From a plasmid, in the sequence record NZ_CP047975.1: 64,000 nucleotides of DNA, one strand, 5' to 3'. Positions 6,001 through 9,000 of this stretch are shown here, one piece after another. Position numbers: made by a program. Positions within the stretch are counted from its first letter, which is position 1; each line of letters begins with the position of its first letter.

Positions 6001-9000
6001 AAATACGCTTTTAGTTGTTCAAACAAGTGGGACCACCTCTATATCTCGATAGGTATAGTAGAGTGATATCTCGATAGGTATAGTGTTTTGCAGTTTAGAG
6101 GAGATATCGCGATGCATACGCGGAAGGCAATAACGGAGGCGCTTCAAAAACTCGGAGTCCAAACCGGTGACCTCTTGATGGTGCATGCCTCACTTAAAGC
6201 GATTGGTCCGGTCGAAGGAGGAGCGGAGACGGTCGTTGCCGCGTTACGCTCCGCGGTTGGGCCGACTGGCACTGTGATGGGATACGCGTCGTGGGACCGA
6301 TCACCCTACGAGGAGACTCTGAATGGCGCTCGGCTGGATGACGAAGCCCGCCGTACCTGGCTGCCGTTCGATCCCGCAACAGCCGGGACTTACCGTGGGT
6401 TCGGCCTGCTGAATCAATTTCTGGTTCAAGCCCCCGGCGCGCGGCGCAGCGCGCACCCCGATGCATCGATGGTCGCGGTTGGTCCGCTGGCTGAAACGCT
6501 GACGGAGCCTCACGAACTCGGTCACGCCTTGGGGGAAGGATCGCCCGTCGAGCGGTTCGTTCGCCTTGGCGGGAAGGCCCTGCTGTTGGGTGCGCCGCTA
6601 AACTCCGTTACCGCATTGCACTACGCCGAGGCGGTTGCCGATATCCCCAACAAACGGTGGGTGACGTATGAGATGCCGATGCTTGGAAGAGACGGTGAAG
6701 TCGCCTGGAAAACGGCATCGGATTACGATTCAAACGGCATTCTCGATTGCTTTGCTATCGAAGGAAAGCCGGATGCGGTTGAAACTATAGCAAATGCTTA
6801 CGTGAAGCTCGGTCGCCATCGAGAAGGTGTCGTGGGCTTTGCTCAGTGCTACCTGTTCGACGCGCAGGACATCGTGACGTTCGGCGTCACCTATCTTGAG
6901 AAGCATTTCGGAACCACTCCGATCGTGCCTCCGCACGAGGCCGTCGAGCGCTCTTGCGAGCCTTCAGGTTAGAGGCCGTCGACAATGATAATCTGGATCA
7001 ACGGACCTTTCGGCGCCGGAAAGACGACGCTCGCTAAGCGGCTGCGCGATCGGCGTTCCAAATCGCTGATCTTTGACCCCGAGGAAATCGGGTTCGTGGT
7101 GAAAGAAACGGTCCCCATGCCAGCGAGCGGAGACTATCAGGATCTCCCCTTGTGGAGGGGACTTACGATCGCGGCGGTCAGGGAGATTCGAAGGAATTAC
7201 TCGCAGGACATCATCATCCCAATGACGCTCGTGCACCCGGACTATCTGACTGAGATACTCGACGGGGTAAGGCGGATCGACGATCAGCTGCTGCACATCT
7301 TTCTGACGCTCAACGAGGACCTATTGCGTCACCGGATCGCGAACCAGACCATGCATCCTGACCCGAATCGAAATGCGGAGATTCGAGAGTGGCGATTAGC
7401 GAATGTCGCCCGATGCTTGGCCGCAAGGGAACGGCTTCCATGCACAACCCGTGTTCTCGATAGTGGTGCACACACCAGCGATGAACTCGCAGCGATGGTG
7501 CTCGACGGAATCGATGGGCGCACCTGATCGCCTTCGACGCCTGCGCAAAGCGTAGCGCGAGGGTGGCGGGCTCACGACCAAACGCCCAGAGGTCGATCAT
7601 CGCAGGGATGTTTGGCTTTGTGGTGCGGACGACGGGACTCGAACCCGTACTCTCACAGAGAAGCAGATTTTCGTACCACCTCGACTTTCGCCGCCGTCTG
7701 ATGACGTTCGTGGTCTGGACTGTCCCTTCGCCATTGCCCGAAGGCTTTAGGCGCCGCCCGTCCAGTCTCTACACCTTCCCCCGAAGGGGCTTGGCTCGGG
7801 ATTGGCTTAGGGTATTGCCCGTTAGCGTTCCCCGACTTTGAGCGGTTCTACTCCGCGGATTTCCCCGCGGGCACTCCAATTTTAAAGTCTGCTGCGTCTA
7901 CCGATTTCGCCACGTCCGCCTTTTTTCGCCGTTCCTAGCGCTCGTGCGATGCACCTATGTTGCACCTAGCGCCGAATCGTTCTTCGTCATCCTGAAAAAC
8001 CACGTCTCCTAAAGCCTTGCATAGCTTATCTTTTCTCCACCACGAACTTTTTTGTGGGATGGTAGAAAAAAAGACTTTTTAAGTCCGCTGGCTTGCCAGG
8101 CCTTGTTAGCTTGTACGGTCATGGTTATCGGGTAAAGAATATTGACGGCATCGCTGGTGTCGGTGGCTGAAAAGCCGGCTCCCATCAGGGCAATAGCCAT
8201 TTCAGATGCAGGCGTACAGGGCAATGGTCAACAGCTACAGCCTGTCTGACGATTCCGGCGTCATGGCTGCGGCGGCTATCACGCATTTTTTGTTCGGTCA
8301 GGCGGTGTTTTCGTACCTCAATGGTTGGAGCGTGTTGATCGGACCTGGTACAGGTTTGGACAGCACGGGCTGCAAATACGCAAGGGATTTAATGGGCCTG
8401 GTGGCGTTCACGGCTTTTATCGTGACGTTTCTGTTCAGGGGCTACTCATAATCTCGTGGCTCGGCGGTTCCCGGCACACCATGACAGTAAGGAAGGACCC
8501 TGTGTCTCAACTCTCCCAGCTTCGAAGCCCCGCCGCCGTGCAGGCTGCCATCGATGAGTTCGTGCAACTGGGCCGCACGAAATTCCTGGCGCGCCACGGC
8601 TACGGCAAGTCCCGCGACTTCCTGGTACGTGATCCGAAGACCGGCACCGATTGCGATTCCAAGGCCATCGCCGGTGTGGCCTTCGGCAAGCAATTTCCCG
8701 AGCAGGGCCCGCTCACTGCTGACAGCTTCTCCGGTGGCGAGGCGACCGTCGTTCCGGCGCTGACGCGGCTCGGGTTTCGCATCATTCGCATCGGCGAAGA
8801 CTGGTCCGAAGAAGAGGTCCTGGCCACGGTCGAAGACTATTTCGACATGCTGCGTGCCGAGGCGGCTGGGGAGCCGTACAACAAGTCCGAGCACAACCAG
8901 GCACTGCGCCAACTGCTGAACGGTCGCAGCAAGTCTTCAGTCGAGCTCAAGCACCAGAACATTAGCGCCGTACTCGATGCCCTGGGCCTGCCCTATATCA

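What the first reader, a model, noticed from the sequence alone, without database searches (positions are those of the whole stretch)
7621..7919. tRNA-Leu(UAA) gene split by a 213-nt Azoarcus-like group I intron, embedded in the GC-rich aac(3)-II/tmrB import
- The 7563-7841 ORF is a GC artefact.
- The minus strand encodes a textbook class II tRNA. Its anticodon loop CUU^AAAA is interrupted between U34 and A35. The intron ends in a G preceding the 3' exon, and its core carries CCGAGCCAAGC...GAAGGUGUAGAGACUGGACGG, near-identical to the IC3 catalytic core of the Azoarcus tRNA-Ile intron.
- tRNA-Leu(UAA) introns at exactly this position are classically cyanobacterial or plastid. Finding one with a beta-proteobacterial-type core, on a 60% GC fragment inside an Acinetobacter resistance plasmid, is unusual.
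- It also marks the likely chromosomal origin of the aac(3)-II-tmrB segment, and the tRNA 3' end faces tmrB, the classic island-integration side.
Basis: seen in the sequence. Interest (0 to 1): 0.8.

Follow-up and report, generated by a model that had tools for sequence, protein, structure and literature searches.

The report
Self-splicing tRNA-Leu intron on resistance plasmids

Summary
The minus strand 7919-7621 encodes tRNA-Leu(UAA): exon 1 is 35 nt, the ORF-less group I intron is 213 nt, and exon 2 is 51 nt with CCA. The intron sits between U34 and A35 and ends in G. Every helix P1-P9 is paired. A covariance model built only from distant relatives gives one hit in the 64-kb window (151 bits, E 2e-39). 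Covariation across 52 homologues supports the fold.

Two parts of the interpretation fail. The intron is not unusual: the same intron at the same site is frequent in Alphaproteobacteria, Acidobacteriota and other phyla. It is also not specifically Azoarcus-like.

The origin idea is partly right. aac(3)-IId-tmrB has about 86% identical chromosomal relatives in Sinorhizobium-like contigs. One environmental contig carries aac(3)-II, tmrB and the tRNA in the same order at 96% identity. No evidence supports island integration at the tRNA 3' end.

The rest of the GC-rich block is a mosaic: DUF3883 and an IS are Stutzerimonas-like.

This is a new member of a known kind. Its spread is the surprise: 1,316 plasmids and 12% of complete E. 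coli genomes carry it, never annotated.

The parts
7885..7919 (-). tRNA-Leu(UAA) exon 1 (35 nt): acceptor 5' strand, D arm, anticodon-stem 5' strand, C32 U33 U34. The 5' splice site follows U at 7885.
   Evidence: U35 of the precursor is invariant in 52 homologues and pairs as U-G with G44 in all 52.
7672..7884 (-). Group I (IC3-type) intron, 213 nt, no ORF. Internal guide GGAGU at 7877-7873. P2 at 7872-7850 with a GAAA loop at 7863-7860. P3 at 7845-7840 / 7759-7754. P4-P6 domain at 7835-7774. P7 at 7765-7760 / 7720-7715. P8 at 7753-7729. J8/7 at 7728-7721. P9 three-way domain at 7713-7676 with a GAAA loop at 7689-7686. Terminal G (omega-G) at 7672.
7621..7671 (-). tRNA-Leu(UAA) exon 2 (51 nt): A35 A36 A37 A38, anticodon-stem 3' strand, long variable arm, T arm, acceptor 3' strand, A73, encoded CCA.
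7920..8080 (-). 161-nt upstream spacer that travels with the tRNA gene. It is homologous in L023, L037, L174 and others and presumably holds the native promoter. The scan found no sigma-70 consensus site.
8066..8086 (-). Left junction of the spacer-plus-tRNA unit. GGACTT (8086-8081) is followed by the hairpin GACTT-AAA-AAGTC (8085-8073) and a run of seven T (8072-8066). In relatives, GGACTT is the end of a truncated resident tRNA-Leu 5' half.
7528..7620 (.). 93-nt spacer between the tmrB stop codon and the tRNA 3' end. It is colinear with L157 at 88% identity.
6985..7527 (+). tmrB (AAA_33-type ATPase), convergent with the tRNA gene.
6112..6972 (+). aac(3)-IId aminoglycoside acetyltransferase gene.
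7563..7841 (+). 92-aa ORF antisense to the intron; not a gene.

Best explanation
Window 7919-7621 (minus strand) is a structurally intact gene for tRNA-Leu(UAA), interrupted between U34 and A35 by a 213-nt ORF-less group I intron of the IC3 type. It belongs to a large family of such introns in bacterial tRNA-Leu(UAA) genes; its nearest relatives are alphaproteobacterial.

Expected mechanism. This is inferred from the fold and from what is established for group I introns; it was not tested here. The precursor is transcribed from the co-transferred upstream spacer. The exon bases ACUU pair with the guide GAGU to form P1, with a U-G wobble at the splice site. Free guanosine bound in P7 attacks after U at 7885. 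The terminal G at 7672 then enters the same site and the exons are joined. RNase P and 3' trimming yield an 86-nt tRNA.

On the plasmids the gene is a passenger. It was captured together with aac(3)-IId-tmrB from an alphaproteobacterial, Rhizobiaceae-like donor in which the three genes were already adjacent. It then spread by IS-mediated and plasmid transfer. It is invisible to standard annotation because tRNA finders do not model group I introns and this intron group scores below Rfam's cut-off.
For: Exact tRNA and intron anatomy.

Family model: Rfam Intron_gpI gives E 9e-8. The independent family model R1 gives one hit in the window, 151 bits, E 2e-39.

Covariation on 52 homologues: 93.5% of cells are paired, 58 of 86 pairs show changes on both sides, no shuffle out of 500 reaches the observed value, and slid controls give 33-43% paired.

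No decay: the window copy departs from strongly conserved columns at one position only (A240G), no more than chromosomal copies do.

Selection on structure at short range: among the 15 closest sequences (>=91% identical), 4 pairs change on both sides, 11 change to a wobble-compatible pair, and only 5 of 1,290 cells are unpaired.

Donor adjacency: contig L157 matches window 6058-7938 colinearly. Identity is 96.3% for aac(3), 96.9% for tmrB, 88.4% for the spacer, 92.5% for the intron and 100% for the exons. aac(3)+tmrB are 86% identical to chromosomal contigs that are syntenic with S. meliloti.

Spread and non-annotation. The tRNAscan-SE authors state that the program was not designed to detect group I introns (PMC8450103).

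Against: Splicing and expression were not tested. No sigma-70-like promoter is found upstream, so expression in Enterobacteriaceae or Acinetobacter is unknown.

The Rfam score is below the curated gathering threshold.

The P8 tetraloop-receptor position is A-A here, against A-C or G-U in relatives. This could weaken one tertiary contact.

L157 is itself flanked by IS elements, so it is not proven to be chromosomal.

The Sinorhizobium-like relatives have no tRNA after tmrB.

Confidence: 0.85

Rival explanations
1. aac(3)-II-tmrB is a genomic island that integrated at the 3' end of this tRNA-Leu gene in the donor, and the tRNA is the attachment site.
For: Homology between the window and every chromosomal relative of the tRNA stops exactly at the CCA end. 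tRNA-Leu(UAA) is used as an integration site elsewhere: L052 has an island bounded by a 57-nt repeat running from the anticodon loop to CCA.
Against: The window has no second copy of the tRNA 3' end, even allowing 3 mismatches. There is no integrase in the GC-rich block. aac(3)+tmrB lie in conserved chromosomal synteny (ECF sigma, EF-hand, BA14K genes) in Sinorhizobium-like contigs without a tRNA. Downstream flanks of related tRNA units are unrelated to each other, as expected for ordinary non-coding divergence.
Confidence: 0.08
2. Late mosaic. The tRNA unit and aac(3)-II-tmrB come from different genomes and were joined only after mobilisation, so the tRNA says nothing about the origin of the resistance genes.
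For: The block is demonstrably mosaic. Window 8503-11290 (DUF3883 plus an IS1182-family IS) is 89.6% identical to a Stutzerimonas kunmingensis assembly. The 86%-identical Sinorhizobium-like loci lack the tRNA. L157 is flanked by IS5-family and IS21 elements.
Against: L157 shares the whole aac(3)-tmrB-spacer-tRNA stretch colinearly. Divergence is graded by constraint: spacer 88%, intron 92.5% with compensatory changes, proteins 96-97%, exons 100%. That pattern is what orthologous segments of two related genomes show, not a recent junction. Both tmrB and the tRNA have alphaproteobacterial nearest relatives.
Confidence: 0.15
3. Silent relic. The gene is intact in sequence but is neither transcribed nor spliced in its present hosts, so it has no activity there. 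This does not conflict with its identity as a group I intron.
For: No sigma-70 consensus promoter lies upstream. The neighbouring genes do not read into it on the minus strand. Copies are >=99% identical in 1,309 of 1,316 plasmids, so the spread is too recent for selection to be visible.
Against: Nothing direct. The native upstream spacer was co-transferred.
Confidence: 0.4
4. The + strand ORF 7563-7841 is a real protein gene and the RNA features are coincidental.
For: The ORF exists and a 93-aa counterpart is open in L157.
Against: It has no Pfam match. PGAP does not call it. Loop indels shift the frame in L023, and no ORF of at least 70 aa is listed there. The variation pattern is that of paired RNA.
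Confidence: 0.02

Closest known systems
Group I (IC3) intron of tRNA-Leu(UAA) in cyanobacteria and plastids (Xu et al. 1990; Kuhsel et al. 1990; cited from PMC3984707 and PMC4033280)
   Same: Same host tRNA, same insertion point between U34 and A35 (from my own knowledge of these introns; the reviews read here say only 'the exact same position' in cyanobacteria and plastids), ORF-less, same core fold.
   Different: The host lineage is alphaproteobacterial. This group carries GUGUAGAG in the core, which was the motif used for the scan; from memory, not tested here, cyanobacterial copies read GUGCAGAG. This copy is on conjugative and mobilisable plasmids of clinical bacteria.
Non-cyanobacterial tRNA-Leu(UAA) introns found here in species genomes (for example L023 Bradyrhizobiaceae MAG, L037 Novosphingobium MAG, L004 Rhodovulum steppense). 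From my own knowledge, one was described in a gamma-proteobacterium by Vepritskiy et al. 2002, J Bacteriol 184:1481; that paper was not readable here.
   Same: Orthologous gene and intron: 89-95% identity over all 299 nt, identical exons apart from one variable-loop base, same helices.
   Different: Those copies are chromosomal. The window copy sits between tmrB and a DUF3883 gene inside an IS-bounded resistance block.
Alphaproteobacterial tRNA-Arg(CCU) group I introns (Agrobacterium; Paquin et al. 1999; Bartonella bacilliformis BbgpI, PMC7717549)
   Same: About 81% identical over the catalytic core (L013, L107). They also lie in tRNA genes that annotation misses. BbgpI is shown to self-splice in vitro and to be spliced in vivo.
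   Different: Different host tRNA and insertion position (after the anticodon), and different P1/P2 and P9 regions.
Azoarcus sp. BH72 tRNA-Ile(CAU) intron (Reinhold-Hurek & Shub 1992; crystal structures cited in PMC3984707)
   Same: IC3 subgroup, about 200 nt, GAAA loops on P2 and P9, and shared core strings CCGAGCCAAGC and GAAGGUGUAGAGACU-GACGG. The Azoarcus sequence was recalled from memory, not retrieved.
   Different: Different tRNA and insertion site. Introns in tRNA-Ile/Met(CAU) genes in my sample are only 69% identical or less to the window intron.

Membership tests
Group I intron (IC3 subgroup) | Conserved helices P1-P9 with the P3/P7 pseudoknot | tested here: met
   All helices are paired in the window copy. 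Every helix is supported by covariation or invariance across 52 homologues. The CM covering P2-P8 scores 151 bits, E 2e-39.
Group I intron (IC3 subgroup) | U-G wobble at the 5' splice site in P1, and a terminal G before the 3' exon | tested here: met
   U35-G44 is U-G in 52 of 52 sequences. G248 (window 7672) is invariant.
Group I intron (IC3 subgroup) | Score at or above the Rfam RF00028 gathering threshold | tested here: not met
   The score is 36.8 bits against a threshold of 50, with E 9e-8. Chromosomal orthologues L023, L037, L004 and L157 also fail, so this reflects the model's sensitivity to this intron group, not decay of this copy.
Group I intron (IC3 subgroup) | Guanosine-dependent self-splicing with exon ligation | not testable with these tools
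   Needs in vitro transcription and a splicing assay. The precedent is the related BbgpI intron (PMC7717549).
tRNA-Leu(UAA), bacterial class II | Cloverleaf with long variable arm, anticodon UAA, A73, and a 7-bp acceptor stem formed by the two exons | tested here: met
   ARAGORN on the spliced sequence calls tRNA-Leu(taa), 86 nt. The acceptor, D, anticodon and T stems are 99.7-100% paired across homologues, with compensatory changes.
tRNA-Leu(UAA) intron family | Intron located between U34 and A35 | tested here: met
   The junction CUU|...G|AAAA is found in the window and in 56 species-genome homologues.
Genomic island integrated at a tRNA 3' end | Direct repeat of the tRNA 3' part at the far end of the island | tested here: not met
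   Only one copy of the 26-nt 3' end is found in 64 kb, allowing 3 mismatches.
Genomic island integrated at a tRNA 3' end | Integrase gene next to the tRNA | tested here: not met
   ORFs of the GC-rich block are AAC(3), TmrB, DUF3883 and an IS transposase only.

The most novel reading that the evidence does not exclude
The 460-nt unit (161-nt spacer plus the intron-containing tRNA-Leu(UAA) gene, window 8080-7621) may be a self-contained replacement cassette. It would invade resident intron-less tRNA-Leu(UAA) genes at the anticodon loop and leave a truncated native 5' half just upstream. That would be a DNA-level route of spread for a group I intron that has no homing endonuclease.

Of 131 intact intron-containing tRNA-Leu(UAA) genes, 36 have such a remnant on the same strand within 2.5 kb upstream. 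None has one downstream and 2 have one on the opposite strand. The same unit sits behind at least six different resident remnants, always broken at CTT-AAAA. The plasmid copy keeps the cassette's left junction, so broad-host-range plasmids would now carry this cassette into Enterobacteriaceae and Acinetobacter.
Probability: 0.3. Interest if true: 0.7.

Novelty: new member of a known kind. Interest (0 to 1): 0.5.

Why it matters
1. A catalytic RNA gene has been riding unannotated in one of the commonest gentamicin-resistance modules. It is in 1,316 of 72,556 PLSDB plasmids and in 647 of 5,426 complete E. coli genomes. Apart from phage introns, to my knowledge group I introns are not regarded as part of the enterobacterial gene pool.

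2. The tRNA, its spacers and the graded divergence seen in L157 give a non-coding marker for tracing aac(3)-II-tmrB. They point to an alphaproteobacterial, Rhizobiaceae-like donor. No paper in the searchable library makes that link.

3. The case exposes a blind spot in annotation. ARAGORN in default mode, PGAP and Rfam at gathering thresholds all miss this whole intron group. The tRNAscan-SE authors say the program was not designed for such introns.

4. The recurrent exon-1 remnants suggest a testable way in which ORF-less tRNA introns spread.

Tried and rejected
- ARAGORN with intron search finds the correct gene ends but misplaces the intron, calling 'tRNA-Stop(tta)'. Its isotype calls for many loci (Phe, His, Ser and others) are artefacts of the same kind. 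I therefore re-derived the junctions with a rule-based check.
- Minimum-free-energy folding of the intron recovers most helices, but the z-score is only -1.4. It is uninformative for GC-rich RNA.
- The weak plasmid hit H25 ('Mobile element protein' under window 7530-7617) comes from a record with fragmented annotation, not from an IS end.
- I searched for the displaced 3' half of resident tRNA genes up to 14 kb downstream of related units and found none. I also searched for conserved genes downstream and found none. An integrative island with a conserved body is therefore not supported.
- The region beyond 8087 was tested as a possible exon-1 remnant. It gives no tRNA signal and only vague resemblance by eye.
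- A fuzzy-regex scan timed out and was replaced by Hamming-distance and regex scans.
- The divergent aac(3)-II variants L137 and L139 are cut by ISCR or IS elements before the tRNA, so they cannot test adjacency.
- Vepritskiy 2002 and Paquin 1999 could not be read.

Full report
**What is there.** On the minus strand, 7919-7885 reads GCGGACGUGGCGAAAUCGGUAGACGCAGCAGACUU: acceptor strand, a 3-bp D stem, the 5' strand of the anticodon stem, then C32 U33 U34. Positions 7671-7621 read AAAAUCUGC..., followed by a variable arm, T arm, CGUCCGC, A and CCA. Joining the two gives an 86-nt class II tRNA that ARAGORN calls tRNA-Leu(taa). The 213 nt in between (7884-7672) end in G. ARAGORN in default mode finds no tRNA in the window, and Rfam at gathering thresholds finds nothing. 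With an E-value threshold, RF00028 Intron_gpI matches 7702-7894 full length at 36.8 bits, E 9e-8; its gathering score is 50.

**Fold.** I placed the helices by hand. P1 pairs exon CUU plus the first two intron bases with UGGAG (the guide GGAGU plus one base 5' of it), with a U-G wobble at the splice site. P2 has a GAAA loop. P3 and P7 form the pseudoknot. P4-P6 include a UUCG-capped P6a. P8 has a receptor-like CCUAAA/AAUGG internal loop. P9 is a three-way domain with a second GAAA loop. Every pair is Watson-Crick or G-U in this copy.

- BLAST shows full-length (1-299) homologues. The closest are a Bradyrhizobiaceae MAG (L023, 95%), a Novosphingobium MAG (L037, 93%) and Rhodovulum steppense (L004, 89%).
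- A rule-based check found 56 loci with the junction CUU|intron...G|AAAA, in Alphaproteobacteria, Acidobacteriota, Burkholderia, Eremiobacterota, Bacteroidia and Gammaproteobacteria.
- The claim that this insertion site is 'classically cyanobacterial or plastid' reflects older reviews (PMC4033280), not current genomes.

**Structure tests.**
- On a 52-sequence alignment the hand-placed structure has 93.5% of cells paired, and 58 of 86 pairs show changes on both sides. No shuffle out of 500 reaches this, and slid controls give 33-43% paired.
- The window copy differs from strongly conserved columns at one position only (A240G in the P9 junction). That is within the range of chromosomal copies, 0-5 for close relatives.
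- Among the 15 sequences at least 91% identical, 4 pairs change on both sides and 11 change to wobble-compatible pairs. Only 5 of 1,290 cells break, and the exons are almost invariant.
- I built a covariance model of P2-P8 from 30 relatives that are 70-83% identical, leaving out the window and its closest relatives (>=80% identical over the whole gene). It finds one hit in 64 kb on either strand: 7714-7872 on the minus strand, 151.3 bits, E 2e-39, with no non-canonical pair.

**'Azoarcus-like'.** Grouped by host tRNA, the window intron is closest to tRNA-Leu(UAA) introns (best 93.5%). Next come alphaproteobacterial tRNA-Arg(CCU)-type introns (about 81% over the core). It is far from introns in tRNA-Ile/Met(CAU), the Azoarcus host type (best 69%, median 37 bits). 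The quoted motifs are invariant in the whole Leu family or defined my search pattern, so they indicate the subgroup and not a beta-proteobacterial source.

**Spread and annotation.** Window 7530-8010 is at least 99% identical in 1,309 of the 1,316 PLSDB plasmids that match it. These come from Escherichia, Klebsiella, Salmonella, Acinetobacter and others. It also occurs in 647 of 5,426 complete E. coli genomes. PGAP annotates nothing between tmrB and a small hypothetical ORF. [quoted passage not shown] No paper in the library combines tmrB with a group I intron.

**Origin.** The GC-rich block is a mosaic of three parts.
- (a) Window 6058-7525 (aac(3)-IId plus tmrB) is 86% identical to long metagenome contigs (L130-L132). 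These carry the gene pair in the same neighbourhood as S. meliloti, where tmrB stands alone, and are about 87% identical to S. meliloti across that syntenic region.
- (b) Window 7621-8086 is the alphaproteobacterial tRNA unit.
- (c) Window 8503-11290 (DUF3883 plus an IS1182-family IS) is 89.6% identical to a Stutzerimonas kunmingensis assembly, which shows the same gene-IS adjacency.

The key result is contig L157, which matches window 6058-7938 colinearly at 96%. Identity is 96.3% for aac(3), 96.9% for tmrB, 88.4% for the spacer, 92.5% for the intron (with compensatory changes in P5a and P9a) and 100% for the exons. This graded divergence indicates that the three genes were already neighbours before the two lineages split.

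Three caveats apply. L157 is itself flanked by IS5-family and IS21 elements. The Sinorhizobium-like relatives have no tRNA after tmrB. The donor itself was not found.

**Island integration.** The window has no repeat of the tRNA 3' end and the block has no integrase. The stop of homology at CCA is also seen between any two chromosomal relatives. The island reading is not supported.

**Side finding.** In L023 and L037, 196 and 194 nt upstream of the start of the intact gene respectively, lies a truncated intron-less tRNA-Leu 5' half ending at CTT-AAAA.
- Across 131 intact intron-containing tRNA-Leu(UAA) genes, 36 have such a remnant upstream on the same strand. None has one downstream, and 2 have one on the opposite strand.
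- The same spacer-plus-tRNA unit follows at least six different remnants.
- No displaced 3' half and no conserved downstream genes were found.
- The window keeps the junction (8086-8066), but the DNA beyond 8087 is not recognisable as an exon.
- This looks like replacement of resident intron-less genes by an incoming intron-bearing gene. The mechanism is unknown.

**Verdict.** The element is an ordinary, apparently functional member of a known intron family. Its interest lies in where it has ended up and in what it reveals about the origin of aac(3)-II-tmrB.

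Noticed in passing
L023:3522-3570, L037:4535-4490 (minus strand) and 34 other loci; window 8066-8086: Truncated intron-less tRNA-Leu(UAA) 5' halves, broken at or just after the anticodon loop (CTT-AAAA), lie 80 nt to 1.5 kb upstream of intact intron-containing tRNA-Leu(UAA) genes. Of 131 genes, 36 have one upstream on the same strand and none has one downstream. 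The same spacer-plus-tRNA unit follows at least six different remnants.
   Followed up: partly
window 8503-11290: The DUF3883 (ScoMcrA_N + NOV_C) gene plus an IS1182-family IS is 89.6% identical to a Stutzerimonas kunmingensis assembly (L123), where the gene follows a 1,729-aa DEAD/UvrD helicase. The GC-rich block is therefore a mosaic of alpha- and gamma-proteobacterial DNA. The IS transposase is split into two ORFs here (9726-10103 and 9988-11124), whereas L123 has an intact 456-aa protein.
   Followed up: partly
L130-L132:5127-6564, L136:5132-6543, L133/L134:6001-6567: An AAC(3)-type acetyltransferase gene plus tmrB sit in a conserved chromosomal neighbourhood (ECF sigma, EF-hand, BA14K genes) in Sinorhizobium-like contigs, at 84-86% nt identity to the plasmid genes. 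S. meliloti has tmrB alone at that locus. This is a candidate source lineage for aac(3)-II. I found no paper stating it.
   Followed up: partly
L052:4212-6057 (minus strand): Pacificispira spongiicola has an intact intron-less tRNA-Leu(UAA) followed by a 1.7-kb insert bounded by a 57-nt direct repeat running from the anticodon loop to CCA. The insert contains the 3' part of another group I intron with a tRNA 3' half.
   Followed up: no
window 8009-8200 (-) and 8224-8451 (+): Two small 'hypothetical protein' genes annotated in thousands of records (WP_000951934.1, WP_000248278.1) have no Pfam match. The first overlaps the junction hairpin and T-run of the tRNA unit, so it may be spurious.
   Followed up: no
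L014:5517-5826 (+) and 6120-6285 (-): One MAG locus holds a complete intron-containing tRNA-Leu(UAA) and, in the opposite orientation, the first 171 nt of a second copy that is 90% identical to the window copy.
   Followed up: no
window 7735 and 7746 (precursor positions 185 and 174): The closing position of the P8 receptor-like loop is A-A in the plasmid copy. In the closest relatives it is A-C, and in most of the family G-U. L157 has the canonical UAUGG on the 3' strand of this loop. This could weaken the docking of the L2 GAAA loop.
   Followed up: no
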